Virus record (IMG/VR): IMGVR_UViG_3300031565_000002
DNA: 50,025 nt
Direction: 5' to 3' (one strand)
From: an uncultured virus (IMG/VR IMGVR_UViG_3300031565_000002)
Lineage: Duplodnaviria; Heunggongvirae; Uroviricota; Caudoviricetes
Part shown: piece after piece, positions 7,566-46,331 of the stretch
Layout: the number at the start of each line of letters is the position of its first letter
Position numbering within the stretch: position 1 is the first letter of the stretch
The notes under the pieces: generated by a model
What the model was told of the DNA's origin: nothing
What the model saw: only the letters and a program-made list of their open reading frames with translations
Database searches by the model: none
Position numbers and translations under genes: made by a program

Positions 7566-7880
7566 TTAATCTTCGATTATTTTTAACATTTTTAGTCTAT
7601 CGATGTTACCATACCCTTGATGTACTTTATTTTCTGTTGCCTTTTTATCAGTTTCACCACCATTAACCTTATATCCCATTGAAACCGGCTCATCAAACAT
7701 ACCATTTTCAATTAACCTAATAACTAAAGGATCAACTAACTCAATATCTACATAATCACCGCAAGAGTTAACTATCTTACCAACAGGTCTATTATCATGG
7801 GAAACATTAAGACCTAAAAAATCTAATGTCTGTTGCCCAGATTCATTCACCAAAAAATCTGATTTTACTCTTATTATCAT
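7566..7880 (-). CDS. Small protein resembling a minimal HK97/herpes-type prohead protease core
   Basis: SHDNRPVG and IENG...VSMGYKV resemble the His and Ser motifs of phage prohead proteases; only 104 aa. Confidence 0.5.
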   Translation of the reverse strand: MIIRVKSDFLVNESGQQTLDFLGLNVSHDNRPVGKIVNSCGDYVDIELVDPLVIRLIENGMFDEPVSMGYKVNGGETDKKATENKVHQGYGNIDRLKMLKIIED

Positions 7881-7912
7881 TTTTGCCCATTATAATAGAT
7901 GTAACCGACTAT

Positions 7913-7943
7913 TATAATATAAAGCCTATTATAAAAAAAGTAA
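7913..7943 (-). promoter_or_regulatory. Putative promoter (recurring motif)
   Basis: Minus strand TTACTT-N16-TATATTATA in an intergenic gap. Confidence 0.55.
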
Positions 7944-7982
7944 CAAAAAAAGATGAATTAAATGAAGGCGTACTACGAAGAA

Positions 7983-8378
7983 TTAAAAGAAGATATTAAG
8001 AAATGCACTTATGCCAGCCCCAACGAGACAAGCAAAAAATATCCACAATAACAAAATCGTCCAATTATTAAATCTACAATGTCTATGTAAAAAAATATAT
8101 ATACCAACCAAAATTTTCATTACATTACTATCTAACCCATTTTCTACCGTATCAGCATTTCTTAGACCACTTAACCCCCTAACTGCCAATCTCTCAACAG
8201 CCAAAGAGCCCCCAGTCTCCTCTAACTCATGCTCAAGAAACTTTTCTTTCTCCTGGCTCTCCTCAAGTTGTTTTTTTAGAGAAGAATTCTCAATCTTAAG
8301 ATTGTCTAACTCAATATCCTTAAGATCAACTTCAACACCGACTTTTTGTAGCCTTTTTCTAATTTCACTTGATGACAT
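7983..8378 (-). CDS. Coiled-coil membrane protein
   Basis: N-terminal coiled coil and C-terminal hydrophobic helices; N-terminal IRKRLQKVG tag. Confidence 0.75.
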   Translation of the reverse strand: MSSSEIRKRLQKVGVEVDLKDIELDNLKIENSSLKKQLEESQEKEKFLEHELEETGGSLAVERLAVRGLSGLRNADTVENGLDSNVMKILVGIYIFLHRHCRFNNWTILLLWIFFACLVGAGISAFLNIFF

Positions 8379-8418
8379 TTATATAATCAACCATAACAAT
8401 GTTAGTATTTACTTTACC

Positions 8419-8742
8419 TCACTGTCTACCAAATCTTACCATAGCATCAGCCGCCTGCTGCGCAGTAAAACTTGTCACAGCAAATGCCTTTGTTAAATTC
8501 TTCATCGCATCAATAGCCTGAACAACATCAAAAGCACCTTCCATCAGGATAAGTTTATCAATATTTCTGCGACTATAGTAAAGATCATGAAGGGCTGACA
8601 TTTCACTGCCAATCTGCTCATATTGCACTACCCCCCTAAATAAATAATCAATATAACCATCAATATATACAATTAAGTCTGCATCACTACAGACAGCACC
8701 ATCACTAGAAAATAAAACCTCACTAATCCTATCTTTTTGCAC
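8419..8742 (-). CDS. Hypothetical protein
   Basis: In the co-directional gene run. Confidence 0.65.
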
Positions 8743-9088: not shown

Positions 9089-9104
9089 TTTACCATCCGA
9101 TTTA

Positions 9105-9647
9105 TTACAACATCCCTAAATTAGCCGCACGCCATATTACCGTATCAACCACACTTAACCTATCCCCAGTAACGGTTGATAAACGAACGCACATTTCATA
9201 AGGCGTAAAACCAAAAGTCCTCGCTATCCTAACGAGATGACGATCCGGCTTTACATAATCATACCCTAAATTTTTAGCAAGATGAAACTTTGTAATCTTG
9301 CCAATCCAAGGCAGTTTCTCCAGGAAAGATAACTTATCCCCTGCCTTTTTAAAATCATCAAATAATCTACATTGATTAAGCCATACATGCTTAATTGCTT
9401 TCACTTTACCTTTATGATTAAAAACTTCAGATATATCTCTTCCATCAATAAGTGCACCTTTTATTTTGTCCCATATTTTTCTTGCTACCTGGTTCTTCAT
9501 ACCAGAATTAATAACAACCCACCCATACTCTGCAAAAAATGCCGTTGCTTTTTCGCAAGGCTTTAAATCTTCAGCCCAATCTATCTCTTCGGCATACCCA
9601 ACTTCAATTAACTTACTTTTTATATCAAGGTATTGCTCGGGTGACAT
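9105..9647 (-). CDS. HhH-GPD superfamily DNA glycosylase-like protein
   Basis: [20 protein letters not shown] (HhH) followed by [10 protein letters not shown]. Confidence 0.65.
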
Positions 9648-10063
9648 TATCTAAAATTCATCCCTCTAATTTGTGTCAGATTCAATCTTCTTTTTACAAC
9701 ATCAACCTTTTCGGAAGTCATCGGTTTAAATCCACCAATAGCCATCTTCCTTAAATTGTCAATCTCTTTTTGAGAGTAAACAGATCCTTCTTTTCTGACA
9801 TACTTTTTAAAAATTCCAGCAGGATCATATGGTGAAACATTTTTATTTTTAATTATATGAATCTTCGATTTTAAATCCTTAACATCCCTTTCTAACCTAT
9901 TGTTCCTAACCCTTAACGATTCTCTATCTTTCTTTACTTCTTTCAGTTCAGCCAACAACTCTTTGACCTTTTTGGTCAATGCTGCATGCTCATCTTTTAA
10001 CATGTCATCATTAACTTCAAGAGCACCCAACCTTTTTTGAGCATTACTATACTTCTTGCCCAT
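9647..10063 (-). CDS. Coiled-coil hypothetical protein with N-terminal tag
   Basis: AQKRLGALEV followed by a heptad-rich segment. Confidence 0.75.
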   Translation of the reverse strand: MGKKYSNAQKRLGALEVNDDMLKDEHAALTKKVKELLAELKEVKKDRESLRVRNNRLERDVKDLKSKIHIIKNKNVSPYDPAGIFKKYVRKEGSVYSQKEIDNLRKMAIGGFKPMTSEKVDVVKRRLNLTQIRGMNFR

Positions 10064-10461
10064 TATTCCACCAACTCAATATCGTTATCATTCATCTTTT
10101 TAACTACATATTGAACTGTATTATCAATATTCCTTTTTCTCTTCATTAAAACAGATAATTTTTTTCTAAAATCAGCCCTTAAATCATCCATGCTCCTATT
10201 TTTTAACACTTTCCGTAATTGCTCATCGAGAGATTTCTGTACTGACAAATCAACATCATTAAAATCAATTCTATCTAACCTTTGTAATAAGCCATTAGCC
10301 TGTTTTATCGCATCGTCTAACTCTAATGATTTCTGCTGTGCTTTAATTAAAAGAGTATCTATTTTATTTGCACTCTCCTTATAGTCAGCCCTTGCAAAAT
10401 CATCGTTAATTCCTAATGCAGCAAACCTTTTAATGATAGAATTACTTCTTATATCAGGCAT
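10063..10461 (-). CDS. Coiled-coil hypothetical protein with N-terminal tag
   Basis: IIKRFAALGI followed by a helical region. Confidence 0.75.
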   Translation of the reverse strand: MPDIRSNSIIKRFAALGINDDFARADYKESANKIDTLLIKAQQKSLELDDAIKQANGLLQRLDRIDFNDVDLSVQKSLDEQLRKVLKNRSMDDLRADFRKKLSVLMKRKRNIDNTVQYVVKKMNDNDIELVE

Positions 10462-10470
10462 TAATATTCC

Positions 10471-11034: not shown

Positions 11035-11049
11035 TATTTCTTTTCTCCT

Positions 11050-11622
11050 TTATCCTATGTTGTTTAATCTGTTATATATATCTTCCCTTTTATGTTCACT
11101 GGGACTTTTTTCATCTTTTTTATTATCGGGGGCTAATCCGTTCTCTTTTAAAAGTTCAAGATAACGATCCATATGCTGTCTCATAAAATCAGAGCAATGT
11201 TCATCGTCTGATATAAAATCTAATGTCCCCCTAACGAATGCCTGCAAATTAGCCACATGATCAATAGTAGCATCCAATCTACCTGATAACCTTGCATTAT
11301 CTGCACCAAGTTCGTCTATTTTATTATTTAATGTATTAAGTATTCTAATAAGTGGATCTGGATCTGATACCAATTGTTGTTGAGTAGCACGCGACTGAAG
11401 TGGGCCCTGTTGCCGCACTATCTGCTGAGCCAATGCCCGCTGTGCATCTAATGACTGCAGTTCTTGATCTGTCAGCCGTCCCTGCGGTAACTGCACTGAC
11501 GGCGGTGACGGCGGTGACGGTATATTTGGTGTCATACTATTCATCTCCATTAAATCTTCAGTACCATCCTGAAACCCTCGATTATATGCTACCGTTAAAT
11601 CATTCGGATCTAGTGATGGCAT
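11050..11622 (-). CDS. Pro/Gln-rich coiled-coil protein with C-terminal tag
   Basis: PSPPSPPS encoded by a 9-bp repeat near 11495-11521; ends IYNRLNNIG. Confidence 0.75.
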   Translation of the reverse strand: MPSLDPNDLTVAYNRGFQDGTEDLMEMNSMTPNIPSPPSPPSVQLPQGRLTDQELQSLDAQRALAQQIVRQQGPLQSRATQQQLVSDPDPLIRILNTLNNKIDELGADNARLSGRLDATIDHVANLQAFVRGTLDFISDDEHCSDFMRQHMDRYLELLKENGLAPDNKKDEKSPSEHKREDIYNRLNNIG

Positions 11623-12116
11623 TATTCACTATCCCCTATATTTTTAAGCCTTCTTTCTATCGGATTCATAAATTCTAGTAACTCTGATTCGTCAATATTA
11701 ACCTTATCAATATCACCACCATCATAATCGTCAACACCTTGTAATGTTATCTCTAACAAATTAACAATTACTTGCACAGGAATATGCTGATCAGACTTAG
11801 TGTGACCAATAACATTCAACATTTCTTTAACTTTAGAAATAACAATATTTCTCTGACGCAACAATGCTTTAAGTTTAGCGTTATCTTCCTTTATTTTTTC
11901 ATGCTCTACAATCAACGCCCGATAATCATCGAGGTGCTTATTGGCTTTCCTTTCAACTGATGCTATCTGACTATTAATACTTCTCGGTGCTAATGACAAT
12001 TTAATTCTCCTGATAAATTCATAAGTAACACTTCTACCATTTGCCCTCGACTCATAAATCTGATTCTCTAAACGCTTTAATATCTTATCTAACTCCATTG
12101 AAAACAATGCAGACAT
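11622..12116 (-). CDS. Coiled-coil protein with C-terminal tag
   Basis: Ends PIERRLKNIGDSE. Confidence 0.75.
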   Translation of the reverse strand: MSALFSMELDKILKRLENQIYESRANGRSVTYEFIRRIKLSLAPRSINSQIASVERKANKHLDDYRALIVEHEKIKEDNAKLKALLRQRNIVISKVKEMLNVIGHTKSDQHIPVQVIVNLLEITLQGVDDYDGGDIDKVNIDESELLEFMNPIERRLKNIGDSE

Positions 12117-12437
12117 TTATGCACCAATATTACCTAATCTTTTCTGAATAGCACTTTCACCATCTTTCTCATGCACAACTTCTTTATTTATCAGACTAAA
12201 ACTTAAATCAGTCCTACACTCAATCATATTCCCTATAACTTCCATAAAATAAGCAGCATCAAAGCCACCATCATCTGGATCCTCTTCGTCTACATAATAA
12301 TGTATCCTATCTAATATTTTCTCCCGTTCAGCAACAATACACTTCAACTCAACGATCTTTTCCCTCATCGCCATATTCTCTTCAGCTAACTTTCTTACCT
12401 TACCTTCAAAATCATTTAATAATTTAATATCAATCAT
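12117..12437 (-). CDS. Coiled-coil protein with C-terminal tag
   Basis: Ends AIQKRLGNIGA. Confidence 0.75.
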   Translation of the reverse strand: MIDIKLLNDFEGKVRKLAEENMAMREKIVELKCIVAEREKILDRIHYYVDEEDPDDGGFDAAYFMEVIGNMIECRTDLSFSLINKEVVHEKDGESAIQKRLGNIGA

Positions 12438-13037: not shown

Positions 13038-13337
13038 TTAACCTACTATCCTAAGTTTACTGAGATAACCACCACTGACAATTATGCCACCATTACCATA
13101 CGGCTTTCCGCCAAACCCTGGGGCAAACATAGAAAGAGAACTGTTTATTATCTTATCAACTTTAAAAACAAGACCATTAAAATTATACTCCCACCTAGCG
13201 AAATCTTGAAAATATTTAATCCTCCCCACTGGGACTACCTTAATACCAACTCTCACATTACTTAAATCACGATTAACATTATCGTTTGATGCAACACCCA
13301 ATATCCACAATCTCTCAAAATTACTTTGCGAAATCAT
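13038..13337 (-). CDS. Hypothetical protein with N-terminal tag
   Basis: NFERLWILGV. Confidence 0.65.
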   Translation of the reverse strand: MISQSNFERLWILGVASNDNVNRDLSNVRVGIKVVPVGRIKYFQDFARWEYNFNGLVFKVDKIINSSLSMFAPGFGGKPYGNGGIIVSGGYLSKLRIVG

Positions 13338-15469: not shown

Positions 15470-15727
15470 TCATATATTCTCCAACCTTTTCTTAATAGCC
15501 GGTGGAGATTTAGGTTCTTCAATCAATTCAATATCAATATACGGCACCCTACTTATTCTCACCATTACAAGACAGTTGGGGCATTCTTTAGTTTTCAATG
15601 TAGCACCACCATATACTTCAATAACTTCACATATTGTTCCACGGGGGATTTCGGCAAGACTATTCTGTAGGTTTCTAAGGGTGCGGACTTTCTTCCCTAT
15701 ATAATCTCTCTTCCTTTTAAGCACCAC
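15470..15727 (-). CDS. Small beta-barrel-like protein with C-terminal tag
   Basis: IGKKVRTL..IPRGTICEV; ends AIKKRLENI. Confidence 0.7.
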   Translation of the reverse strand: MVLKRKRDYIGKKVRTLRNLQNSLAEIPRGTICEVIEVYGGATLKTKECPNCLVMVRISRVPYIDIELIEEPKSPPAIKKRLENI

Positions 15728-19587: not shown

Positions 19588-20478
19588 TCAATGGAATACC
19601 CCATATACTTTTTTGCCATTATCTGGTGATGAAACATCAGAAAAATCATCACCAAAGTCTGCATCTAATTCATCAAGCGTAGCATCATCTTGACTTTCAG
19701 GCTCATTTTCATGGCTATTTGCTGACATATTAAGTAAAACCTGTCGAAAAAGATCATCTATAGTGTCAGCCGGAGCACTACCAACAATAGGAACACCTCC
19801 TGGTGACCCCCTTGCACTTTCTCCACCCCTTTCTGAACTTGATGAACTAGAAAAAGATGAACTTGAAGATGATGAACTTGAAGATTCCATACTCTGAGAT
19901 GGTGTCGATGAAATTGATGATGATGGTTCTGATATTGACGAAGATGATGATAGCGACGGCCCACTCGATAAATCGCCACTACTCGACTCACCACTACTTG
20001 ACACATTTAAGGGCTCACCCATATATAATTTTCGAAGCGATTCATCGCTATATGTATGCCCAGGGTCGCACATATACTTCCAAACAATACCAATCCTAAC
20101 TTTGCTTCCATTAATAGGATGATATGAACTCTGAAAACTTTCCATCTTGCCAACATTACACGAACCTGTATAAATCGGCCTACCCCACAAATCATTACTA
20201 GAAAGAGTTGATTCTACGATAACCTTAAACTCAAATCTAACCCCAACCTTGAATCCGGAAGAACTAGATGCACCACCTTGACCTATTATACCAGGGAGGT
20301 ATATATCATCCATTCTCAATTCTGAAATATGACCAACATGATTACCATCAACATCACAAACTTCACCATTGACAAATATATTATCCTGCTGTTCCTCAAG
20401 AGAATCATCGTATTCCTGCTCAATGGGAGCATCTGACACATTTAATGCTGTAAGCCGTCTATTTATCGACTGATTCAT
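19588..20478 (-). CDS. Protein with N-terminal tag, small domain and Ser-rich/acidic tail
   Basis: SINRRLTALNV; long poly-Ser tract. Confidence 0.8.
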   Translation of the reverse strand: MNQSINRRLTALNVSDAPIEQEYDDSLEEQQDNIFVNGEVCDVDGNHVGHISELRMDDIYLPGIIGQGGASSSSGFKVGVRFEFKVIVESTLSSNDLWGRPIYTGSCNVGKMESFQSSYHPINGSKVRIGIVWKYMCDPGHTYSDESLRKLYMGEPLNVSSSGESSSGDLSSGPSLSSSSSISEPSSSISSTPSQSMESSSSSSSSSSFSSSSSSERGGESARGSPGGVPIVGSAPADTIDDLFRQVLLNMSANSHENEPESQDDATLDELDADFGDDFSDVSSPDNGKKVYGVFH

Positions 20479-25575: not shown

Positions 25576-25879
25576 TTTCTATCACCCTTCTTAATCGTTC
25601 CTCGTGACTACTACCACTTATTTGTGCCAAATTTTCAGGCTCTTCAACTTCAACTGATCTATTATGTGTAACTTTATCTTTATCTACTACATTATCATTA
25701 CCATCTAAAAATTTAAATATATTATCTGAACTTACCAACCGAGGCCCCTGATCGATCATTTCCATCATCCCTGGAACAATATCATTATTATAGTTACAAT
25801 GATCACATGTCCCCCAATTCTCATATTGCCTTGTCCAATAAACATACCCACACATACAGCATCTTACTGCGTCAGACAT
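25568..25879 (-). CDS. Zinc-ribbon protein with C-terminal tag
   Basis: CCMC..CDHC; ends GSSHEERLRRVIENE. Confidence 0.7.
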   Translation of the reverse strand: MSDAVRCCMCGYVYWTRQYENWGTCDHCNYNNDIVPGMMEMIDQGPRLVSSDNIFKFLDGNDNVVDKDKVTHNRSVEVEEPENLAQISGSSHEERLRRVIENE

Positions 25880-31031: not shown

Positions 31032-31244
31032 TTAAACTTCACATCCGACTGCAGCCAGTCTTTTTTCTATATGATTAAGTTCCCGGGGAACTTCTATTAT
31101 ATCAAAATGTCTAGGAAGCATATTTTTACAATTAAAGTCTGCCGTACTAGTGCTTTTAAAATCGCTATTATGGCTATGACATACAACGTGCCCATTACCA
31201 TGATCTTCCATATAAACACACATTTTACATTTTGTTATTATCAT
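31032..31244 (-). CDS. Small Cys-rich protein with C-terminal tag
   Basis: CKMC...C...C; ends HIEKRLAAVGCEV. Confidence 0.7.
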   Translation of the reverse strand: MIITKCKMCVYMEDHGNGHVVCHSHNSDFKSTSTADFNCKNMLPRHFDIIEVPRELNHIEKRLAAVGCEV

Positions 31245-34378: not shown

Positions 34379-34380
34379 AA

Positions 34381-34527: not shown

Positions 34528-34528
34528 T

Positions 34529-34974: not shown

Positions 34975-34984
34975 AATTCACTCA

Positions 34985-37173: not shown

Positions 37174-37182
37174 AATTCTCCC

Positions 37183-38231: not shown

Positions 38232-38232
38232 C

Positions 38233-38832: not shown

Positions 38833-38865
38833 TACTTTATTCCATAATAAAATTGCATGTTTTAA

Positions 38866-39279
38866 CTATGTTCCCACCGAAATACGTGCATAAACAGTAC
38901 TGAAAAATTCACCATACTTACCAGAATCATCAAAATGCATATCTATGCCTTCTCGCTTACAATATTCACCCTTTGTCCTGTCCCATATTTCCCCATCCAT
39001 CCAAGGAGTCCCTTTTGCATCATAGGTTATTGTAACGCCCTGACTCCTTTGATAATCAGTAACAGAGAAAAAATGAGTATACTTAATACACCATTCTTTT
39101 AATTTATCTTTAATCTCATCTTTTTCTTCTTGTCCGGTTATTATATGAACTTCATGCCCATTGTCTACAAGTAAATTCGATAAAACGGCAAAAAGGGGAC
39201 ATAACTTATCTATTACCCCTCCAATATCAATCCCTATTTTTATTACAGTATGTTTTTTGCCGTCAGTCCTTATCTGCAT
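38866..39279 (-). CDS. HAD-superfamily phosphatase/nucleotidase-like protein
   Basis: IGIDIGGVI, IITG, K, FDDS. Confidence 0.75.
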   Translation of the reverse strand: MQIRTDGKKHTVIKIGIDIGGVIDKLCPLFAVLSNLLVDNGHEVHIITGQEEKDEIKDKLKEWCIKYTHFFSVTDYQRSQGVTITYDAKGTPWMDGEIWDRTKGEYCKREGIDMHFDDSGKYGEFFSTVYARISVGT

Positions 39280-39310
39280 TTTAATTAATTTCCCACTATT
39301 TTTTATACTT

Positions 39311-39631
39311 TTAAATTATACTGTAAGTTAAACAAATTTTTTCCCGTTCTGTATATTCCCCTAATTCTATCCATGCTTCAATGTAATCATCATATTGACT
39401 TAAAATATCATCAACTGAACCTTCAACAATAATATCTATTACAATACATTTATCTCCTGTTTCAGGATCAACCTGAATTCTCAATGTGATCGTATCAATT
39501 TTTTTAAACTTATCCTTAACTAATAAAACAGCATTATCGACAAAAGAAACTATACCATTTTCTTCAGCGAACACCTTTACTTCATCAGAAAGTTTATTTT
39601 CCTTCATTTTGATTCGCTTCCCATTCTTCAA
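39311..39631 (-). CDS. Hypothetical protein
   Basis: Likely start MKENK at 39607. Confidence 0.65.
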   Translation of the reverse strand: MKNGKRIKMKENKLSDEVKVFAEENGIVSFVDNAVLLVKDKFKKIDTITLRIQVDPETGDKCIVIDIIVEGSVDDILSQYDDYIEAWIELGEYTEREKICLTYSII

Positions 39632-40673
39632 AATAAGGTTTCAAACAAAACCGGTATCCACCGGCCCTCCTGTATTTGTCTATATCAGGCAAAAGATGAT
39701 TCGGTATTTGATCAACTTCTACCTTGTTGATATGAGCCAGAATAGCAGCATCACTACAGCGTAACGGAAGATTATGTTTATCAGCTAATTTAGTAACAAT
39801 ATCCTGTTGAATAGGCTTATATTTTTCCATAAGAATAACAGGATCTATCTCATTCATAATTGTTTTAGCAATCAGAATAGACGGTACCACTTTAAACCAT
39901 TTATTCCCGGCCAAAGACGGAATTTCCATTTTACTTAATAATCCACCGAACCTAAAATAAAATAACCCATAAGGTTTAGTGTACGACATCACTACAGCTT
40001 TTATATTCTCATGAGTAAGGTCAAAATTATGAGGTAACGTACAATCGACATACGCTAAATCCATAAAAACATAATGACCGGCTTCACATATTCTTTGGAT
40101 ATATGAATTAGGAATAATATTACCATCTATTGCTGATGGATTAGATATAAAAAACCATCCTGGAGGGATATCACCTATCATATCCACACTTACTTCTGCA
40201 ACTTTTACATTATAATCCCTATATCTTCTCGTTTCCCCAACAAACTTATACCCTTCATACTCACCTTCCAATACATATGCATCCTGACAACCAATAGAAA
40301 GAAGATAAGTCATAAACTCCCTGATTCCTTCTTCTGATCCGGCTGTAGGATATACATTTGCGAACCGGTCTATTCCAGGCAATGTATTCCTGTGTTCATA
40401 AACCCATCTTTTAAAAACTGGCTCATGCATAACATCCATACAACCAGGTGTCTGCAAAAAATGGGACAGAAAATTTTCATCAAAGTTATTACGGCAAAGT
40501 TTTAATACATGTTCAGCGAACGCGCCATTATCCTTCCCATGTTCAAGCAATTTTTTATGAGAATAGAAAAGTTCCCCATAAAAACTCTGTCCAATCATCG
40601 TATTGAATATGCATTTTTTAACTTCCGGAAACATGTAACTATAAACGGTATTGAGTGCTTTTATCTGCTCCAT
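39594..40673 (-). CDS. PLP-dependent class I/II aminotransferase-like protein
   Basis: GSEEGI, SNPSAIDG, DLAY, SYTKPYGL...RFG. Confidence 0.8.
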   Translation of the reverse strand: MEQIKALNTVYSYMFPEVKKCIFNTMIGQSFYGELFYSHKKLLEHGKDNGAFAEHVLKLCRNNFDENFLSHFLQTPGCMDVMHEPVFKRWVYEHRNTLPGIDRFANVYPTAGSEEGIREFMTYLLSIGCQDAYVLEGEYEGYKFVGETRRYRDYNVKVAEVSVDMIGDIPPGWFFISNPSAIDGNIIPNSYIQRICEAGHYVFMDLAYVDCTLPHNFDLTHENIKAVVMSYTKPYGLFYFRFGGLLSKMEIPSLAGNKWFKVVPSILIAKTIMNEIDPVILMEKYKPIQQDIVTKLADKHNLPLRCSDAAILAHINKVEVDQIPNHLLPDIDKYRRAGGYRFCLKPYFEEWEANQNEGK

Positions 40674-41554
40674 TAATATATTCTCCCTCCTTCTACGTTC
40701 TCCCAGCTTGTCGTTAATATATCTTCCCCAGGTTGTGGGAAATATATCAATTGACGGATATCATCTTTACCTGCATCTTTGGTGAGTCCGGTAGTAATAC
40801 AAACATTCTGACCATCCACTTCATATACTTCTGCTCCATGTGGCAATACATCACAAAGAGCACCACCTTTAACATATTTCAATATTTCATCATATTTATT
40901 CTCTGATAACCGATACTTCATAGCCTCATTAGCAACACCAAAATCTAGCGTATTAGTGGGAATATCAATTTCCCTTAATGATAACTGCATTACTTTTCTA
41001 TCTTTAGCATATTGGATTAAATTTTTAACTTCCCCTACTTTATCTATATATTTCTCTGCGAGCACACAAGATAAACGCACCCTGAATCCAAATGCATGAA
41101 GTTTGTCTATTAACTTTACCAAGTTATACGAACTATTAACACCAAACATCTCTTTATTAAGTTCGGGGTCATAATGATATATAGAAATAGCAATTACATC
41201 AAGCCCCAACATTTTCCACACCTTTAGAAACTCATCTATCGCTCCATCTGTGGCTAAATACGATCCTTCAGTCTGCAATTCAGTTTTATCAAACGGGTGC
41301 CCCTTAAACTCTATTAAATATTGAGATACTTGAGCTGGAAAATAAGTAGGTTCACCTTTACCAGTTATCAGTATATTTTGAGCATTGTGGTTAAGCGCAA
41401 ATTGTCTTGATTTTCTTAAGGTCTCTACGCAAATTTCATTTGGAGCACCGGCCCCGATCTGATGAAATGGAGTCATCTTAGAAATACATATTGGGCAATT
41501 ATTGGGACATGCCCTTGAACCGGCAATCAATGTTAAAGTAAGAACGTTTTTCAC
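40673..41554 (-). CDS. Radical SAM protein
   Basis: CPNNCPIC (CxxxCxxC), ITGKGEP. Confidence 0.9.
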   Translation of the reverse strand: MKNVLTLTLIAGSRACPNNCPICISKMTPFHQIGAGAPNEICVETLRKSRQFALNHNAQNILITGKGEPTYFPAQVSQYLIEFKGHPFDKTELQTEGSYLATDGAIDEFLKVWKMLGLDVIAISIYHYDPELNKEMFGVNSSYNLVKLIDKLHAFGFRVRLSCVLAEKYIDKVGEVKNLIQYAKDRKVMQLSLREIDIPTNTLDFGVANEAMKYRLSENKYDEILKYVKGGALCDVLPHGAEVYEVDGQNVCITTGLTKDAGKDDIRQLIYFPQPGEDILTTSWENVEGGRIY

Positions 41555-41580
41555 AACGATAATCCTTTTTTTAAACGTTA

Positions 41581-41612
41581 CTATAATATAACAAATACAA
41601 GAATAAAATCAA
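41581..41612 (-). promoter_or_regulatory. Putative promoter (recurring motif)
   Basis: TTGATT-N16-TATATTATAG. Confidence 0.75.
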
Positions 41613-41618
41613 CTATAA

Positions 41619-41660
41619 AATAACAAAACCCAATCACAAATTGCAATCAGGTTTTATTAT
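41619..41660 (-). terminator. Putative terminator
   Basis: AAAACCTGATTGCA-ATT-TGTGATTGGGTTTT with G-U pairs, then U-rich sequence. Confidence 0.55.
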
Positions 41661-41680
41661 TAACCAACTAAACGTTTTTA

Positions 41681-42064
41681 TTATAGTGAATCTAATTCTT
41701 TTTGATCTCGATCAATTTCCTTTTGAATAGAAAGCATTTCCTGTGCTATCCTTGTTAACATTTCTTTTGTAGCACCATTCTTTTTATATGCTTCATATTT
41801 ATCGGACAACCTTTGGAGTCTAATCGTCATACCTTTGGTATTACGACTTAATTCAGCCTTCTTTAAAATAACTGGAGGTATCAAGTCTGCTTTAATCATT
41901 TCATGAATGATCATAGCATTAAATTCGCTGATTTTACGAACATTAGTTATAGCAGCATAAAGATTATCAATTACATTTTCACTCTCAACATCAAATGGAT
42001 CATCTATACCCAAATGATGAAACAAAATATTTATCTTCTGAATCAGTTCATCGAGATTTTCCAT
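41681..42064 (-). CDS. Helical hypothetical protein
   Basis: ATG at 42064 follows GGAGG (the track starts at 42085). Confidence 0.75.
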   Translation of the reverse strand: MENLDELIQKINILFHHLGIDDPFDVESENVIDNLYAAITNVRKISEFNAMIIHEMIKADLIPPVILKKAELSRNTKGMTIRLQRLSDKYEAYKKNGATKEMLTRIAQEMLSIQKEIDRDQKELDSL

Positions 42065-42182
42065 AGCATCCTCCCCCAAAGACACGAAAGACAGCTTTAT
42101 GCTGTCTTTCGCATGCAGAGGGTAACTCTTATGTCATAGCATTCAATTAATCCAGCCAATATACCCGGGACAATATACAATA

Positions 42183-42401
42183 TTACTGTTTCGCACGGCT
42201 AACATTTACAACCCTTTTCTCAGGTTGCTGATTCATTTCCCTTGTATTTGTACGTTCCTCAACTTCACCAAGGCCGTTTTCGAGTACTGCTGTAGCATCA
42301 AGACATTTCTTGCCCTTAATACCATGAACGTGCAACTCAACCTTATCACCAGTTGGATCTATGGTGATTTCAATTTCTTCTCTTTTTACAGATTTCGTCA
42401 T
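42183..42401 (-). CDS. DUF2997-like protein
   Basis: EIEITIDPTG.VELHVHGIKGKKCLDAT..LE..LG.V. Confidence 0.8.
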   Translation of the reverse strand: MTKSVKREEIEITIDPTGDKVELHVHGIKGKKCLDATAVLENGLGEVEERTNTREMNQQPEKRVVNVSRAKQ

Positions 42402-42467
42402 TACGATACTCCCGTTAAATTGTTATTAAATACTTGGTTAAACCTATCCCCAAATATGCATAAATAA

Positions 42468-42857
42468 TTATGCTGCCATCGCACGGGCACGAATTTTTAC
42501 AGCACCGCCCTTTACGGTTTCCTCACTCAAAACAGTATAGCGTTTTCTGCGCAGAAGGACTTTAACTTCCTTCGCAACATAGATCTTCTTGACTGAATTT
42601 CTGAAAGTCTGCTCGCTCACGTCGGTCTGATAGAAGTCACCAACAAGGTCGTAGTACCCTTCCTTCTGGTCGAGTTTGAAACCAACTCTGTTGGAGTGGT
42701 TACCGGTATTAACCAATAAATCAACAACCCCAAGATTCTTATCGCGGTAATCGGCAAGTTTTCCATTTTCAGAGTAGGAGTATCCCAACTCTTCAAGGGT
42801 CGTCTTTAATGTTTCCAGATTCTTGATCTGGACTTTGAGTTGTACTTGATGAGACAT
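42468..42857 (-). CDS. DUF1257-like protein
   Basis: MSH.......IKNLETLKTTLEELGY...VGF......Y.LVGDFY. Confidence 0.8.
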   Translation of the reverse strand: MSHQVQLKVQIKNLETLKTTLEELGYSYSENGKLADYRDKNLGVVDLLVNTGNHSNRVGFKLDQKEGYYDLVGDFYQTDVSEQTFRNSVKKIYVAKEVKVLLRRKRYTVLSEETVKGGAVKIRARAMAA

Positions 42858-42901
42858 ACTAATCTCCTTTTTTTAAATAATACTCTCTTATTAATAATTT
42901 A

Positions 42902-42933
42902 CTATAATATAACAATTCATCGAAAAAAATCAA
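42902..42933 (-). promoter_or_regulatory. Putative promoter (recurring motif)
   Basis: TTGATT-N16-TATATTATAG. Confidence 0.75.
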
Positions 42934-43070
42934 CTAAATCAATTTTTTATTTTTTATTTTTCCCCCTTTTCAGCACTTTTTGCCTTTTTATAGTTCATCT
43001 TTTTAAGAACCTTCCTTAAAATCTCTAATTTTTTTCCTATCAAGTGGAATAAATACATGGTGTGATATAT

Positions 43071-44645
43071 TTACACTTTCTCCTTTTCAGATTTTTTATC
43101 ACCTGAAATTAACTGTAATACTTTGACATCACCTTCAGCTTCCTTAGATGATACCTGTTTCGCTCCATTATCAGTCGCCCACTGTATTAATGCTTGTATT
43201 TTTTCTCCCTGAGACTTACTTTGTGGTGTCATATCATTGACAACAGATAATATAAGGTTTGTATTCAAATCCTTCTTGCCAACATACGCTTCAATGATAC
43301 TATCTTTAGTTATCTGCTCTATTTCAGCACCATTAAACGTATCGGTAACCCTCGCCAATTCATGATAATCAATCTTTTTAGAACCCTTATTTCTTTTCTC
43401 ATAATGAATTCTAAAAATAACTTCTCTTTCTTCAGTATTTGGTAAACCGGCAAACATTATTCTATCCCATCTGCCAGGTCTTACCATTTCAGGTGAAAGG
43501 CTCGATACATTATTAGCTGTAGCAACAACAAAGAAATCAGCATTTCTATTTTCAAGTTTATCCAAAAATATAGAAAGAGTTCTTGATGTCATTCCACCAT
43601 CTGACTGTCCTGATGATTCCATACCACTTGCCCCTTTTTCAATTTCGTCCATAAAAACAACACAAGGGGCAACGGCTTCAATCGTCCTAAACGCTTCCAA
43701 TAGCCAGTTTTCAGCCTGTCCAACAATACCGCCAGATTGAGCCATAACAGAAGCCAAACTCAGTATTACAACAGGAAGATTATACTCATACCCAATACAC
43801 TTTGCAAATTTAGATTTACCACAACCAGGAACACCGAACAATAAAAGTCCCTTTGGAGCTTCAACACCGAAATTACGGCTATCTTCAGAGAAGCAGGTCT
43901 TACGTTTTTCAATAAAAAGTTTACCAAGATCCCACCCTCCAAGCAAACTGAATTTATCATCAATCCTCGGATTATATATTTCAAGTACAGGATTCTTTTT
44001 AACAATACTTAACTTTTCCTGATTCAAAAGCTCAATACTAACAATCTGACTTTTATCAATAGCTGCTTGTCGTGCAATAACATTAACTGCTTCCATCTCC
44101 GTCAATCCTGCCATTGCCTTATTTATCTTATCTCTTTGTTCAGGGTTCAATGCATTTTTAGCATTCTTAACGTAATTAATAATAGTATTACGTTCACTTT
44201 CTGTTGGCAATGACCACTCAATAACCTGTATACTTTTACTGAGCCGTTGTGGAAGATTTAACATTGGAGCAAGGATAATAATATTTACATGAATTAGACC
44301 ATCTTCAACTATTGTTCTCAAATGCCTTTGTACAAGATCATCCGGAAGATAAGCATCATAATCCTTCAAGACATATACCGTTTTTTCATTCTCGGGTGTT
44401 TTCTTTATTTTTTCCAATATGGCAACTGGATCAGCCAATTCATTGCCACCCTCTGCTACACCATCGCTGTTAACAAGGCCAACATCAGTTGACCATGTTT
44501 TCAAACTCTGGCCAAAGCCCTTTTCTGATTTAAGTAGATTGTCAATAATATTTAATATCCTTTTTTCTTCATAACTTACTATGTAAATTACAGGATATAA
44601 AGCCTTGATCATTTCTTTCAAATTCTGAAGATTTTCCGCACTCAT
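43071..44645 (-). CDS. Ycf46-like AAA+ ATPase
   Basis: YIVSYEEKR N-domain, GVPGCGKS Walker A, FMDEIEK Walker B, ATAN, RPGRWD. Confidence 0.9.
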   Translation of the reverse strand: MSAENLQNLKEMIKALYPVIYIVSYEEKRILNIIDNLLKSEKGFGQSLKTWSTDVGLVNSDGVAEGGNELADPVAILEKIKKTPENEKTVYVLKDYDAYLPDDLVQRHLRTIVEDGLIHVNIIILAPMLNLPQRLSKSIQVIEWSLPTESERNTIINYVKNAKNALNPEQRDKINKAMAGLTEMEAVNVIARQAAIDKSQIVSIELLNQEKLSIVKKNPVLEIYNPRIDDKFSLLGGWDLGKLFIEKRKTCFSEDSRNFGVEAPKGLLLFGVPGCGKSKFAKCIGYEYNLPVVILSLASVMAQSGGIVGQAENWLLEAFRTIEAVAPCVVFMDEIEKGASGMESSGQSDGGMTSRTLSIFLDKLENRNADFFVVATANNVSSLSPEMVRPGRWDRIMFAGLPNTEEREVIFRIHYEKRNKGSKKIDYHELARVTDTFNGAEIEQITKDSIIEAYVGKKDLNTNLILSVVNDMTPQSKSQGEKIQALIQWATDNGAKQVSSKEAEGDVKVLQLISGDKKSEKEKV

Positions 44646-44658
44646 TAAGAAATCCTTT

Positions 44659-45906
44659 CTATACGCATTTACCTAATGCACTTTCGTCTATATCTTTAAA
44701 TATTTTAGTTGCGACCTTATGATCTATAATAATCTTATTATCACCTTTTTTAACCATGTCAGGCAATTCAAACTGTAACTCCAACACTAGCCCTTTCACT
44801 ATTGATCTTAGCCCTCTTGCTCCAGTTCTTCTCTCAATAGCTCTATCAACAATCATATCAAGACACTTATCGGTGAATTCAATACTGCAATTATCAAGTT
44901 CAAAACTATACTGTATCTGCTTGACAAGGCTATTCTTCGGCTCAACTAGAATCTGTTTCAATTCTACCCTATTTAATTCGTCAAGAGTTACATATATCGG
45001 AATTCTTCCAAGTAATTCAGGAATCAAACCAAACTTTATTAAATCTTCAGTTGTAACCAAAGGAAGATAATCATTAACATTAATTCTTTCACTCTTCTTC
45101 GATATTGTACCCGTAAAACCTATAACTGATCCTTTTGAAACTCTCTTCCTTATAATTTCAGCGAGACCATCAAAAGACCCACCAAGAACAAACAATACAT
45201 TCTGAGTATTGAAAGTCATAGATTTCTGGTGAGGGTGTTTTCTGGTAGAGCCATCCATAGGAAGAAGGCATTCTGATCCCTCTATCATTTTTAATAGCGA
45301 CTGCTGCACGCCCTCACCACTGACATCTCTAGTTAAACTTGGGCTTTCCCCCTTGCGTGAATTTTTGTCTATTTCGTCAATAAATACAATTCCTCTTTCC
45401 GCCCTCACCAAATCATAATCAGCATTGATAATTAACGATGTTAAAACGCTTTCTACGTCATTACCAACATATCCAGCTTGGGTAAATGTGGTAGCATCAC
45501 CAATTGCAAATGGAACATCGAGAATCCTTGCTATCGTTTTCAGGAGAAGGGTTTTCCCACAACCGGTAGGTCCAATTAATAGAATGTTAGCCTTTTCTAA
45601 TTCAACATAATTAGTCTTTGGAGCATTAATCCTTTTATAGTGTTCCCTTACTTCAGTTGCTAATATTTTCTTCGATCTTACTTGACCAATAACATATTCA
45701 TTTAATCTCTCAAAAAGTTCCTTGGGAGTAAGATCAAACTTATCATTGTTTTCATTTTGTTTTTTGGAGTTTACTATTATATTGGAAGCAGCACCAATAC
45801 ACGTTTCACAAATCTTAACGCCTTCTCTACCCTCAACAAAATTTTTAACGGCTTTTTTTGTTCCTCCGCAAAAATTGCAAATAGGCTCACTAATATCATT
45901 GGTCAT
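44659..45906 (-). CDS. clpX: ATP-dependent Clp protease ATPase subunit ClpX
   Basis: CNFCG..ICETC zinc domain, [39 protein letters not shown] loop, GARGLR. Confidence 0.95.
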
Positions 45907-45942
45907 ATATAGTCCTTAAAATTGTTTAAATTTCACCTTCAA

Positions 45943-45974
45943 GATAATATAACAAAAACCTAACAAAAAGTCAT
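45943..45974 (-). promoter_or_regulatory. Putative promoter for clpX
   Basis: ATGACT-N17-TATATTAT with TG extension. Confidence 0.65.
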
Positions 45975-45977
45975 AAA

Positions 45978-46331
45978 CTAATTAATCTTTTTCAATCTTT
46001 TTTCAACATAATTAGGGGTATTGTCAGATACTTTTACCCTATTTTCAAAGAATTCTCTATTTAATGTATAATTTTTCAACTCAAAAAACTCACTTCCCAA
46101 CAACTTAGCAACAATAATTGCAACTACATCCTTGAATTCCCCATAAGTCTTACCATATTTATCATCTTTCTCAATCGAATCATTATCATAGATAAAATTG
46201 CCTGTCTCTAAATCAATTTCCGATAACATTCCTTTGGTAACAGATAATACAGGGCGAGATACTTCATCGAATTCTACAAGGGAAATTTTAACAAACCTTT
46301 TCCCCTTAACTAAGAATCTAATATCTCTCAT
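45978..46331 (-). CDS. Hypothetical protein with C-terminal tag
   Basis: Ends PNYVEKRLKKIN. Confidence 0.7.
   Translation of the reverse strand: MRDIRFLVKGKRFVKISLVEFDEVSRPVLSVTKGMLSEIDLETGNFIYDNDSIEKDDKYGKTYGEFKDVVAIIVAKLLGSEFFELKNYTLNREFFENRVKVSDNTPNYVEKRLKKIN

What the first reader, a model, noticed from the sequence alone, without database searches (positions are those of the whole stretch)
7566..46331. A shared ~10-residue peptide tag on about 20 unrelated proteins: candidate undescribed protein-targeting system
Seen: the same amphipathic motif, about [SNPD]-h-x-[KREN]-R-[LF]-x-x-[ILV]-[GND], sits at the extreme ends of otherwise dissimilar ORFs. N-terminal copies: 8378 EIRKRLQKVG, 10063 NAQKRLGALE, 10461 SIIKRFAALG, 13337 SNFERLWILG, 19470 PAFKKLYSLG, 20478 SINRRLTALN, 24388 NIKKRFQALG, 27160 EHEKRLKQID. 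C-terminal copies: 7566 GNIDRLKMLK, 11050 DIYNRLNNIG, 11622 PIERRLKNIG, 12117 AIQKRLGNIG, 15470 AIKKRLENI, 21199 SHEERLAAVD, 21411 NWQEKLDAIE, 25568 SHEERLRRVI, 28807 PAIDRLKAMG, 30508 GVQKRLAAVN, 31032 HIEKRLAAVG, 45978 YVEKRLKKIN. It usually follows a linker and a helix-capping residue. Carriers include zinc ribbons, coiled coils, a membrane protein and a protease-like domain. N-terminal copies prefer xALG and C-terminal copies prefer xNIG or AAV. Inference: a portable docking signal read by one phage hub. Candidates are capsid packaging (analogous to the T4 capsid-targeting sequence or encapsulin cargo peptides), recruitment to a phage compartment, or recognition by the co-encoded ClpX, AAA or M16 proteins. 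I know of no described system matching it.
Basis: partly seen in the sequence, partly recalled or inferred. Interest (0 to 1): 0.92.

Follow-up and report, generated by a model that had tools for sequence, protein, structure and literature searches.

The report
Shared terminal docking tag, orphan phage proteins
About a quarter of the small, mostly orphan proteins on this stretch of an uncultured large phage carry the same short peptide on a loose linker at one end, most likely a common address label read by one partner that is still unidentified.

Summary
All 20 listed copies sit at the stated gene ends (17 robust, 3 marginal). The motif [SNP]-x-Φ-x-[KE]-R-[LF]-x-x-[ILV]-[GN] lies 3-8 residues from the N-terminus or 0-5 from the C-terminus (one copy at 17).

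It is far above chance: 19 terminal hits against 0.37 in shuffles. It is absent from antisense and off-frame ORFs, and 1,859 ORFs of 60 unrelated phage loci show no terminal enrichment.

Selection acts on the peptide, because third codon positions vary freely, and spacing to the next gene rules out a ribosome-binding site. The carriers are not paralogues, and none reaches a Pfam cut-off or any PHROG.

One carrier has 88 homologues elsewhere and none bears the tag; in its model the tail hangs loose. A relative whose AAA ATPase is 67% identical also has tag-like ends on 2 of 7 ORFs.

I read it as a lineage-private docking handle. The AAA ATPase is Cdc48-like and has no MIT bundle. Resemblances to MIM1 and MinE are at spacing level only. 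Capsid targeting is weakly disfavoured. No published equivalent turned up in two searches, although this scan has noted similar tags in other huge phages.

The parts
7581..7613 (-). C-terminal tag YGNIDRLKMLK of the 104-aa ORF 7566-7880 (marginal copy)
   Evidence: leave-one-out score -0.2 bits
8337..8369 (-). N-terminal tag SEIRKRLQKVG of the 131-aa ORF 7983-8378. The carrier has a coiled coil and a hydrophobic C-terminal anchor.
   Evidence: 16.9 bits; anchor read from the sequence, no predictor run
10016..10048 (-). N-terminal tag SNAQKRLGALE of the 138-aa ORF 9647-10063
   Evidence: 22.4 bits
10411..10443 (-). N-terminal tag NSIIKRFAALG of the 132-aa ORF 10063-10461
   Evidence: 22.5 bits; no alternative in-frame start within 50 codons
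11053..11085 (-). C-terminal tag EDIYNRLNNIG of the 190-aa ORF 11050-11622 (marginal by PWM)
   Evidence: 1.7 bits
11634..11666 (-). C-terminal tag NPIERRLKNIG of the 164-aa ORF 11622-12116
   Evidence: 19.4 bits
12123..12155 (-). C-terminal tag SAIQKRLGNIG of the 106-aa ORF 12117-12437
   Evidence: 23.0 bits
13296..13328 (-). N-terminal tag QSNFERLWILG of the 99-aa ORF 13038-13337
   Evidence: 10.8 bits
15473..15502 (-). C-terminal tag PAIKKRLENI, ending at the stop, of the 85-aa ORF 15470-15727
   Evidence: 8.3 bits
19423..19455 (-). N-terminal tag NPAFKKLYSLG of the 203-aa ORF 18859-19470 (an orphan protein)
   Evidence: 10.4 bits; orphan in 1.84 billion representatives
20440..20472 (-). 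N-terminal tag QSINRRLTALN of the 296-aa ORF 19588-20478
   Evidence: 13.1 bits
21208..21240 (-). C-terminal tag SSHEERLAAVD of the 80-aa ORF 21199-21441
   Evidence: 18.7 bits
21414..21446 (-). C-terminal tag RNWQEKLDAIE of the 156-aa ORF 21411-21881 (marginal copy)
   Evidence: 1.4 bits
24350..24382 (-). N-terminal tag ENIKKRFQALG of the 655-aa ORF 22421-24388 (an orphan protein)
   Evidence: 17.3 bits; only itself found among 5.8 billion proteins
25580..25612 (-). C-terminal tag SSHEERLRRVI of the 103-aa Cys-rich ORF 25568-25879
   Evidence: 7.1 bits
27125..27157 (-). N-terminal tag SEHEKRLKQID of the 164-aa ORF 26666-27160
   Evidence: 15.2 bits
28858..28890 (-). Near-C-terminal tag NPAIDRLKAMG of the 195-aa ORF 28807-29394 (17 residues follow position +3)
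   Evidence: 15.7 bits
30514..30546 (-). C-terminal tag KGVQKRLAAVN of the 123-aa Cys-rich ORF 30508-30879. This is the carrier whose 88 homologues lack the tag.
   Evidence: 15.4 bits against a maximum of 3.1 in the homologues
31044..31076 (-). C-terminal tag NHIEKRLAAVG of the 70-aa Cys-rich ORF 31032-31244
   Evidence: 18.7 bits
45981..46013 (-). C-terminal tag NYVEKRLKKIN of the 117-aa ORF 45978-46331, the gene directly upstream of clpX
   Evidence: 13.6 bits; this gene is absent from the syntenic relative L009
23201..23233 (-). Possible internal copy RSHIERLRNIS inside the 655-aa carrier (not claimed)
   Evidence: 11.2 bits
32894..32926 (-). Possible internal copy NDIHNRLDAVN in a variable surface segment of RtcB (not claimed)
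   Evidence: 13.8 bits; the segment is missing in L009 RtcB but a segment of similar length exists in Pyrococcus RtcB
44659..45906 (-). Phage ClpX with zinc-binding N-domain and IGF-type loop. Candidate reader only; binding is not shown.

Best explanation
The tag is a portable, lineage-specific short linear motif. It is probably a capped two-turn amphipathic helix, with an N-cap of S/N/P, hydrophobic residues at -4, 0 and +3, an invariant basic residue (Arg in 18 of 20 copies) at -1, and Gly or Asn as the C-cap. It is attached by a polar, flexible linker to the extreme N- or C-terminus of at least 20 unrelated, mostly orphan proteins.

It most likely works as a common docking handle. One partner protein binds the helix, so all carriers are brought to the same place or machine.

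What is shown: the motif, its terminal position, peptide-level selection, its add-on nature, and its presence in a relative.

What is inferred: that it is a helix, that it binds a protein, and that there is a single reader.

The confidence given (0.65) is for the common-reader docking mechanism. This would be ClpX through its zinc-binding N-domain, in the manner of SspB-type tethers, or the Cdc48-like ATPase through an adaptor. The carriers would then be clients or substrate-delivering adaptors.
For: - The tag is terminal and far above chance, and specific to this genome.
- Codon positions 1 and 2 are conserved and position 3 is nearly free. Arg uses AGA, AGG, CGA and CGG, and Leu uses TTA, TTG, CTG, CTT and CTA.
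- There is no fixed spacing to the next start codon; it ranges from -10 to 92 nt.
- The carriers share no detectable similarity outside the tag. None of the 20 reaches a Pfam cut-off and none has a PHROG hit.
- None of the 88 homologues of carrier 30508-30879 reaches 8 bits (maximum 3.1), against 15.4 for the window protein, scored with a PWM that excludes that carrier.
- In the AF2 model of that carrier, residues 104-123 have pLDDT below 50 and no packing, whereas the domain is modelled.
- Linkers are polar: 0.67 against 0.51 +/- 0.03.
- Copies occur at either end in the same orientation, which fits a tether on a flexible leash.
- In the relative L008, 2 of 7 ORFs have tag-like ends, against 6 of 1,859 control ORFs (p 2e-4).
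- For an AAA+ reader: the window encodes a genuine ClpX with N-domain and a Cdc48-like ATPase with no recognition domain of its own. A tagged gene directly precedes clpX. SspB has the same architecture of folded domain, disordered region and short ClpX-N-binding end segment (PMC9963277, passages).
Against: - No reader is identified and no interaction is shown.
- The helix is not seen in the AF2 model, which draws the tail as low-confidence coil.
- The tag profile finds no significant match to any PDB chain, including ESCRT-III tails and MinE, within E <= 10.
- The AAA ATPase has no MIT-like bundle.
- The syntenic relative L009 keeps ClpX and the AAA ATPase but lacks the tagged gene next to clpX, and shows no tag in 16.7 kb. 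This is not informative either way, because the equivalent region of the window holds only one tag.
- Adjacency of a tagged gene to clpX is weak evidence when 20 of 86 genes are tagged.
- Only 50 kb of a genome of at least 192.5 kb was visible.
- Two of the three carriers searched for homologues were orphans, so the add-on test rests on one family.
Confidence: 0.65

Rival explanations
1. Address label for packaging into the capsid, or for import into a phage-built compartment. This would be analogous to the T4 capsid-targeting sequence, encapsulin cargo-loading peptides or microcompartment encapsulation peptides (all recalled, not checked here).
For: A short terminal peptide on a linker, placed on unrelated cargo at either end, is the recalled architecture of microcompartment and encapsulin targeting peptides. 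Linker and terminal position are shown. The capsid, scaffold and portal genes are outside the visible 50 kb, so this could not be tested.
Against: - The robustly tagged carrier 7983-8378 ends in a long hydrophobic stretch that looks like a membrane anchor (read by eye). That would not suit a packaged or imported cargo.
- The tagged genes lie in a block of small orphan genes next to metabolic and methylase genes, not next to structural genes.
- Published phage-nucleus import uses recognition surfaces, and no terminal signal was found (PMC11087766, passages).
Confidence: 0.12
2. A degron. The tag would mark early proteins for timed destruction and be engaged directly by a protease, ClpXP or another, rather than serving as a tether.
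For: ClpX recognises unstructured degrons at N- or C-termini, in five classes (PMC12723719, abstract and passages). The phage encodes its own ClpX with a ClpP-docking IGF-type loop. The tags are within 0-8 residues of an end.
Against: - The residues at the very ends differ among copies (..NIG..AVNE..VGCEV..VIENE..ENI), and one copy lies 17 residues in.
- The helix-capping pattern suggests a folded binding element, not an unstructured tail.
- No ClpP gene is in the window.
Confidence: 0.1
3. Mimic of a host hub ligand. For example, the R-L helix could engage a MinD/ParA-type ATPase as the MinE contact helix does, placing or activating the carriers on a host scaffold.
For: MinE R21 lies in the MinD-binding contact helix and stimulates the MinD ATPase, and the L22R and K19E/R21G mutants lose MinD binding (PMC7276532 and PMC2883074, passages). 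The tag has the same adjacent Arg-Leu in a short helix-like segment.
Against: - The tag profile did not retrieve MinE from PDB sequences within E <= 10.
- No ParA/MinD-type protein was found by Pfam in the window or in the 4.6-kb extension.
- The host is unknown.
- The resemblance covers two residues and spacing only.
Confidence: 0.08
4. Self-association handle. The helices would bind each other, or the coiled coils of some carriers, and co-assemble the tagged proteins without a dedicated reader.
For: Several carriers are coiled-coil-like. The top PDB profile hits are coiled-coil peptides and ZapB, though at E 0.1-2 they are not significant.
Against: - A two-turn helix with three hydrophobic positions is short for stable self-assembly.
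- The invariant Arg and the capping Gly suggest a specific pocket.
- Many carriers are not coiled coils.
Confidence: 0.05
5. Cleavage or recognition site for the co-encoded M16 (pitrilysin/MPP-type) peptidase, which would trim the ends of the carriers.
For: The M16 gene 6322-7551 has both M16 domains and an HxxEH motif, HYLEH. It directly follows a tagged gene. From recall, MPP recognises Arg-containing amphipathic presequences.
Against: - 12 of 20 copies are C-terminal, 0-5 residues from the end. Cleavage there would remove almost nothing, and it is not how presequence peptidases are known to act (recalled).
- The tagged gene next to M16 is one of the three marginal copies.
Confidence: 0.04
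6. Membrane-targeting amphipathic helix of the MinD/FtsA type (recalled).
For: The tag is a basic, amphipathic, terminal segment.
Against: - There are only three hydrophobic positions, and +1 and +2 are often polar (K, N, E, Q).
- Sequence-specific conservation of Arg-Leu and Gly is not needed for lipid binding.
- One carrier already has its own hydrophobic anchor.
Confidence: 0.04
7. Not a protein feature at all: the shadow of a DNA motif (promoter, ribosome-binding site or recombination linker at gene boundaries), compositional bias, or chance.
For: The copies lie at gene boundaries, and the Lys-Arg codons are purine-rich.
Against: - Third codon positions carry 0.02-0.26 bits in 11 of the 13 aligned codons (0.67 at the Arg codon, 0.37 at -5), against 1.2-1.7 bits at positions 1 and 2 of the Arg and Leu codons. 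The +3 codon keeps only its middle T.
- Spacing to the next start ranges from -10 to 92 nt, and separate Shine-Dalgarno sites are visible.
- Antisense and off-frame ORFs of the same DNA give 1 and 0 hits.
- Shuffles give 0.37 terminal hits.
- 60 other phage loci show no terminal enrichment.
Confidence: 0.01

Closest known systems
SspB-type tethering adaptors: a C-terminal ClpX-binding segment docking on the ClpX N-domain
   Same: The architecture matches: a folded domain, a disordered region and a short terminal peptide that binds one receptor domain (PMC9963277, passages). A ClpX with that N-domain is encoded here.
   Different: Here about 20 different proteins carry the peptide, at either end. 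It looks helical, with an Arg-Leu core. Binding to ClpX is not shown. The sequence of the SspB segment is known to me only from recall and was not compared.
MIM1 helices of ESCRT-III tails binding MIT domains (Vps4, USP8 and others)
   Same: Both are terminal amphipathic helices with the spacing hydrophobic-x-x-Arg-hydrophobic-x-x-hydrophobic. The published consensus is [DE]xxLxxRLxxL[KR], and LxxR(Phi)xxL is said to suffice (PMC12057046, passages). 13 of 20 tags fit Phi-x-x-R-[LF]-x-x-[ILVM].
   Different: None of the 20 carriers matches the strict consensus. No MIT-like bundle is present in the AAA ATPase. The tag profile retrieves no ESCRT-III chain. The carriers are not ESCRT-III proteins. 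This is an analogy of mechanism only.
Sliding-clamp-binding tails of T4-type phages (gp43, gp33 and gp55 on gp45; recalled) and the terminal tags noted by this scan in other huge phages
   Same: One short peptide at the ends of several unrelated phage proteins, read by one hub. Eight earlier notes describe lineage-private tags of this kind.
   Different: The motif is different. The carriers here are orphan proteins of unknown function, not replication or transcription enzymes. No clamp gene is in view. The earlier notes are unchecked AI notes, not publications.
Encapsulin cargo-loading peptides, microcompartment encapsulation peptides and the T4 capsid-targeting sequence (all recalled)
   Same: A portable terminal peptide on a linker that addresses unrelated cargo to one shell.
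   Different: No shell, scaffold or capsid gene could be examined. One robust carrier appears membrane-anchored. The motif sequences differ as far as I recall them.
MinE contact helix on MinD
   Same: A short helix whose adjacent Arg and Leu are needed for binding or activation (PMC7276532 and PMC2883074, passages).
   Different: No MinD/ParA-type gene is seen. MinE was not retrieved by the tag profile. There are twenty carriers instead of one regulator.

Membership tests
MIM1-MIT system | Ligand matches [DE]xxLxxRLxxL[KR] (ELM consensus as quoted in PMC12057046) | tested here: not met
   None of the 20 carriers matches the strict pattern. 13 of 20 fit the relaxed Phi-x-x-R-[LF]-x-x-[ILVM].
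MIM1-MIT system | A reader with a three-helix MIT domain, typically at the N-terminus of a Vps4-like AAA ATPase | tested here: not met
   In the AF2 model of the AAA ATPase (pLDDT 85.7), residues 1-215 form an alpha/beta domain plus lid. The whole chain superposes on p97/Cdc48/Rix7 D1-D2 with TMq up to 0.72. The rest of the genome was not visible.
MIM1-MIT system | Sequence-level similarity of the tag to known MIM1 ligands | tested here: not met
   The profile of 20 tags searched against 177,635 PDB sequences retrieved no ESCRT-III chain within E <= 10. Chains under 20 residues are not in that library.
SspB-like ClpX tether | Folded domain, disordered linker and short terminal docking peptide | tested here: met
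   The tail 104-123 is unpacked, with pLDDT below 50, in the one carrier with a deep alignment. Linkers are polar in all 20 carriers.
SspB-like ClpX tether | ClpX with its zinc-binding N-domain is available | tested here: met
   PF06689 matches at residues 9-44. E 2.3e-118 to solved ClpX over residues 9-398.
SspB-like ClpX tether | The peptide binds the ClpX N-domain | not testable with these tools
   No experimental route is available here. See Tried and rejected for the one modelling job.
ClpX terminal degrons (N-motifs 1-3, C-motifs 1-2) | Unstructured signal at the extreme N- or C-terminus with a class-specific sequence | tested here: inconclusive
   The terminal position is met.
Capsid or shell targeting peptides | A shell, scaffold or capsid partner encoded in the same genome, and carriers found inside it | not testable with these tools
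   Structural genes are not in the 50-kb window or the 4.6-kb extension. The full record could not be reached.
MinE-MinD type contact helix | A MinD/ParA-type ATPase partner | tested here: not met
   No such Pfam family was found in the 86 window ORFs or in the 6 ORFs of the L007 extension. The host is unknown.
   None of the 88 homologues of carrier 30508-30879 reaches 8 bits (maximum 3.1). They carry a different conserved tail, PDFSKRxYN[MI]P, in 59 of 88 by regex. Two other carriers were orphans and could not be tested.

The most novel reading that the evidence does not exclude
The phage carries a library of twenty or more orphan proteins, each with a different target-binding domain. All are plugged by the same tether into one phage-encoded AAA+ unfoldase or protease (ClpX, or the Cdc48-like ATPase). 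The phage would thereby redirect protein unfolding or degradation to many host targets at once. This would be a bacterial-virus counterpart of the substrate-receptor families that eukaryotic viruses use to hijack ubiquitin ligases. The tags this scan has noted in other huge phages would be lineage-private versions of the same strategy.
Probability: 0.12. Interest if true: 0.9.

Novelty: new variant of a known kind. Interest (0 to 1): 0.72.

Why it matters
Short docking peptides that plug many proteins into one hub are well known, for example clamp-binding tails, ClpX tethers and shell-targeting peptides. A private tag carried by roughly a quarter of the genes in a block of orphan genes did not turn up in my two literature searches.

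If the reading is right, it gives a handle on phage 'dark matter'. Twenty proteins of unknown function become one functional class, and a single pull-down with the peptide could reveal the machine they serve.

The tag is also a practical tool: a roughly 11-residue label for recruiting proteins in this phage lineage. Together with the eight similar cases noted by this scan, it suggests a general and undescribed organising principle of huge phage proteomes.

Tried and rejected
1. **MIT-domain reader in the AAA ATPase.** Rejected. The N-terminal 215 residues are a degenerate AAA D1, not a helical bundle.

2. **Tag profile against all PDB sequences.** Nothing significant. The best hits were a designed repeat protein (E 5e-4, through its repeats), ZapB (E 0.13) and coiled-serine peptides. 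No MIM1 tail and no MinE appeared.

3. **Complex prediction.** ClpX N-domain (residues 1-62, two copies, 3-row alignment) with the last 35 residues of carrier 11622-12116. The verdict was 'no answer', score 0.00, and the controls were not run.

4. **DNA-motif, RBS and composition rivals.** Rejected.

5. **Paralogy of the carriers.** Rejected. The only link is 25568-25879 against 21199-21441 at E 0.13, within the tail region.

6. **Reaching the rest of the genome.**
   - No G000 is held.
   - Exact-match scans of the viral and metagenome collections found nothing.
   - A protein-based scan found L007, a 57,670-nt contig 99.994% identical over window 33074-50025, which adds 4,620 nt.
   - The record behind L007 is not searchable.

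7. **Homologues of the 655-aa and 203-aa N-tagged carriers.** Both are orphans.

8. **Whether the Cys-rich family's own tail 'DFSKRxYNxP' is the same tag.** I suspected so at first. It was rejected by the PWM (maximum 3.1 bits), and the tail is absent from non-family proteins in 60 loci: 1 terminal hit, itself probably a missed family member.

9. **RtcB internal copy as a phage-specific insertion.** Rejected as a claim. The segment is missing in L009, but a segment of similar length is present in Pyrococcus RtcB.

10. **Whether the tag copies the tail of ClpX or the AAA ATPase** (lead from note e1-6054368). Neither protein ends in the motif.

11. **Atlas look-ups** of the vWA C-terminal half and of the 134-aa neighbour. 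Neither revealed a peptide-binding module.

12. **ClpX scan of genome contigs** for an alignment and a host hint. Only two 40% relatives were found, which is not informative.

Full report
**What the window is.** All long ORFs lie on the minus strand. GC content is about 35%, with a strong purine bias on the coding strand. A greedy non-overlapping set gives 86 ORFs and 15,782 aa.

Pfam names the following:
- three DNA methyltransferases
- an M16 peptidase
- an RtcB ligase
- an NAD-salvage cluster
- a radical-SAM protein
- a ClpX
- a classical AAA ATPase followed by DUF1257 and DUF2997
- a vWA protein and a PKD protein

No deposited phage is similar at the DNA level. One carrier occurs on contigs of up to 192,507 nt, so this is part of a large, isolated, uncultured phage-like genome. 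No whole genome is held.

With the invariant Leu/Phe as position 0, the consensus is:
- [SNQ] at -6 and [SNP] at -5
- a hydrophobic residue, mostly Ile, at -4
- [KE] at -2
- Arg at -1 (18 of 20; Lys in 2)
- Leu (17) or Phe (3) at 0
- [AN] at +2
- [ILV] at +3 (Met in one copy)
- Gly (9), Asn (3), Asp (2) or Glu (2) at +4

N-terminal copies start 3-8 residues after the initiator. C-terminal copies end 0-5 residues before the stop, except one with 17 residues following.

**Is it more than chance?** Yes, by every control I could devise.
- Regex counts: 18 terminal hits against 1.61 +/- 1.23 in shuffles. For the core R[LF]xx[ILVM]G, 9 against 0.31.
- Because the motif was defined on these data, I also used leave-one-out PWM scoring. 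17 of 20 copies score 7.1-23.0 bits. Three are marginal: 7566-7880, 21411-21881 and 11050-11622.
- The full PWM finds only 5 further positions at >=8 bits among roughly 15,000, all internal.
- Antisense ORFs of the same DNA give 1 hit and off-frame ORFs give 0. Ten other loci (about 40,500 aa) give 2 terminal and 7 internal hits.
- 60 unrelated viral loci (1,859 ORFs, 289,164 aa) give 12 terminal and 51 internal hits. That is the proportion expected from the size of the terminal zones.
- A blind enumeration of 11,136 gapped three-position patterns ranks [KR][ILVM]..[ILVM], [KR][KR][ILVM] and [ILVM]..[KR][ILVM] first for terminal enrichment (p 3e-10 for the first).

**Protein or DNA?** It is a protein feature. 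Codon positions 1 and 2 of the Arg and Leu codons carry 1.2-1.7 bits. Third positions carry 0.02-0.26 bits in 11 of the 13 aligned codons (0.67 at the Arg codon, 0.37 at -5). The +3 codon keeps only its middle T. Arg and Leu each use four or five synonymous codons.

The Arg codon lies from -10 to 92 nt from the next start codon, and separate Shine-Dalgarno sites are visible, so the C-terminal copies are not ribosome-binding sites.

Three of the 8 N-tagged genes have no other in-frame start within 50 codons. Several have a Shine-Dalgarno sequence before the annotated start, so the N-terminal copies are translated.

**Are the carriers related?** No. All-against-all BLASTP finds no pair of carriers below E 0.1. 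The nearest is E 0.13, within the tails of 25568-25879 and 21199-21441.

None of the 20 reaches a Pfam gathering score, and none hits a PHROG.

By eye they are coiled coils, Cys-rich ribbons, beta-rich proteins and a Ser-rich disordered protein. One, 7983-8378, has a hydrophobic C-terminal anchor (no predictor was run).

19 of 56 genes between 7.5 and 31.3 kb are tagged, against 1 of 30 outside that block (p 7e-4).

**Do homologues lack the tail?** Three carriers were searched. The 655-aa and 203-aa proteins are orphans.

The 123-aa Cys-rich protein 30508-30879 has 88 homologues. These carry their own conserved tail, P-D-F-S-K-R-x-Y-N-[MI]-P, mostly 14-17 residues after the domain (range 11-24), in 59 of 88 by regex. 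I first took that tail for the same tag.

A PWM built from the other 19 window tags gives the window protein 15.4 bits and no homologue more than 3.1 bits. The family tail is also not found on other proteins of 60 loci that encode the family. The window protein keeps a degenerate remnant of the family tail (LPIFGK...) and then adds the tag. So the tag is a lineage-specific add-on.

In the AF2 model built on the family alignment, the domain is modelled (block means 53-92). Residues 104-123 have pLDDT below 50 with no packing.

The 12 residues between the tag and the body of each carrier are polar: 0.67 against 0.51 +/- 0.03, with 0 of 2,000 random draws reaching that value.

**Relatives.** The AAA ATPase has relatives at 84% and at 54-69% identity on other contigs.
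- L009 (66%) is syntenic from the PKD gene to RtcB. It lacks the vWA gene and the tagged gene beside clpX.
- L008 (67%, 4.9 kb) has two small non-conserved ORFs, and both have tag-like ends...PSIFDRLE-stop at 13.3 bits and MNNNIERVKNLNN at 10.6 bits. That is 2 of 7 ORFs, against 6 of 1,859 in controls (p 2e-4).

So the tag is shared within the lineage.

**Who reads it?** This is not known.

ClpX is genuine. It has E 2.3e-118 to solved ClpX, a zinc-ribbon N-domain and an IGF-type loop.

The AAA ATPase belongs to the family that sources label SpoVK/Ycf46/Vps4. Its model superposes on the D1-D2 tandem of p97/Cdc48/Rix7. It therefore has a degenerate D1 and no N-terminal recognition domain.

That removes my first idea, which was that the tag docks on a MIT domain. 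The tag's spacing does equal the relaxed MIM1 pattern LxxR(Phi)xxL (PMC12057046, passages), and 13 of 20 copies fit it. But none of the 20 carriers matches the strict consensus, and the tag profile retrieves no ESCRT-III chain or MinE from PDB sequences.

The Arg-Leu pair is also what MinE uses on MinD, but no MinD/ParA-type gene is in view.

These are analogies of mechanism, not memberships.

**What I conclude.** The features are:
- a capped amphipathic segment
- an invariant basic-hydrophobic pair
- a polar leash
- position at either end in one orientation
- an add-on nature
- persistence in a relative

Together these are those of a docking motif read by one partner. I give that about 0.65.

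Among possible readers I lean, weakly, to the phage's AAA+ machines. SspB shows that exactly this architecture tethers proteins to the ClpX N-domain (PMC9963277). ClpX is known to read both kinds of termini (PMC12723719). The Cdc48-like ATPase has no recognition domain of its own.

Capsid or compartment targeting is possible but weakly disfavoured, by the apparently membrane-anchored carrier and by the gene neighbourhood.

Two literature searches found no description of a phage-wide terminal tag. The scan's own earlier notes list eight other huge-phage windows with different private tags, none with an identified reader. These notes are unchecked leads. They suggest the phenomenon is general.

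**Limits.**
- Only 50 kb plus 4.6 kb of a genome of at least 192.5 kb was visible.
- The add-on test rests on one family.
- The helix and the membrane anchor are inferred from sequence.
- No binding is shown.

Noticed in passing
window 30508-30879 and homologues P0123-P0210; loci L015-L074: A widespread family of roughly 115-aa Cys-rich proteins of phages and plasmids (invariant C17, C21, W79, C80, ...ECER) with no Pfam or PHROG model. It has its own conserved C-terminal peptide, P-D-F-S-K-R-x-Y-N-[MI]-P, mostly 14-17 residues after the domain, in 59 of 88 members. Its function is unknown.
   Followed up: partly
window 41681-44645; L008 1398-4111; L009 9965-12650: A conserved four-gene module: a Cdc48-like AAA ATPase (degenerate D1 plus active D2, labelled Ycf46-type by sources), DUF1257, DUF2997 and a helical-hairpin protein of 121-134 aa. 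It lies directly after clpX in all three phages. The AAA ATPase also has full-length relatives (about 29% identity) in Mycobacterium phages.
   Followed up: partly
window 32174-34378 and 532-3228: The RtcB ORF is 734 aa, against 395 aa in the relative L009. Its extra residues 74-391 resemble (22.6% identity, E 1e-12) a LAGLIDADG-containing segment inside the 898-aa DNA methyltransferase. These are probably inteins in both genes. Splice junctions were not examined.
   Followed up: partly
window 34985-38832: A cluster for NAD salvage and turnover: an NAPRTase-family phosphoribosyltransferase, NAD synthase, an isochorismatase-family protein and a NUDIX hydrolase. It is partly conserved in L009.
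   Followed up: no
L007 3720-5264 (its end overlaps window 49382-50017); L009 5892-7545: A second, different shared C-terminal peptide, roughly [VI]-R-R-T-x-V-E-P-[EN]-x-Q-[NE]-[DN]. It sits near the ends of two adjacent proteins (about 104 aa and a PKD-domain protein of about 407-447 aa) and is conserved in the 66% relative.
   Followed up: no
window 49063-49359; L009 7577-7900: The phrog_1233 protein has 'ARRLYA[IL]LK' near its C-terminus, which resembles the tag. It is conserved in the relative and scores only 2.3 bits, so it is probably part of that family's fold and not a tag.
   Followed up: partly
window 532-6321; L007 2051-3472: Four N6/N4-type DNA methyltransferase genes lie within about 60 kb. 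A RlaP-like nucleotidyltransferase (L007 875-1813; clearer in L009 4807-5688) occurs together with RtcB, which suggests an RNA-repair pair.
   Followed up: no
window 32894-32926 and 23201-23233: Two internal positions score like tags: NDIHNRLDAVN in a variable surface segment of RtcB (13.8 bits) and RSHIERLRNIS in the middle of the 655-aa carrier (11.2 bits). They could be internal copies or chance.
   Followed up: partly
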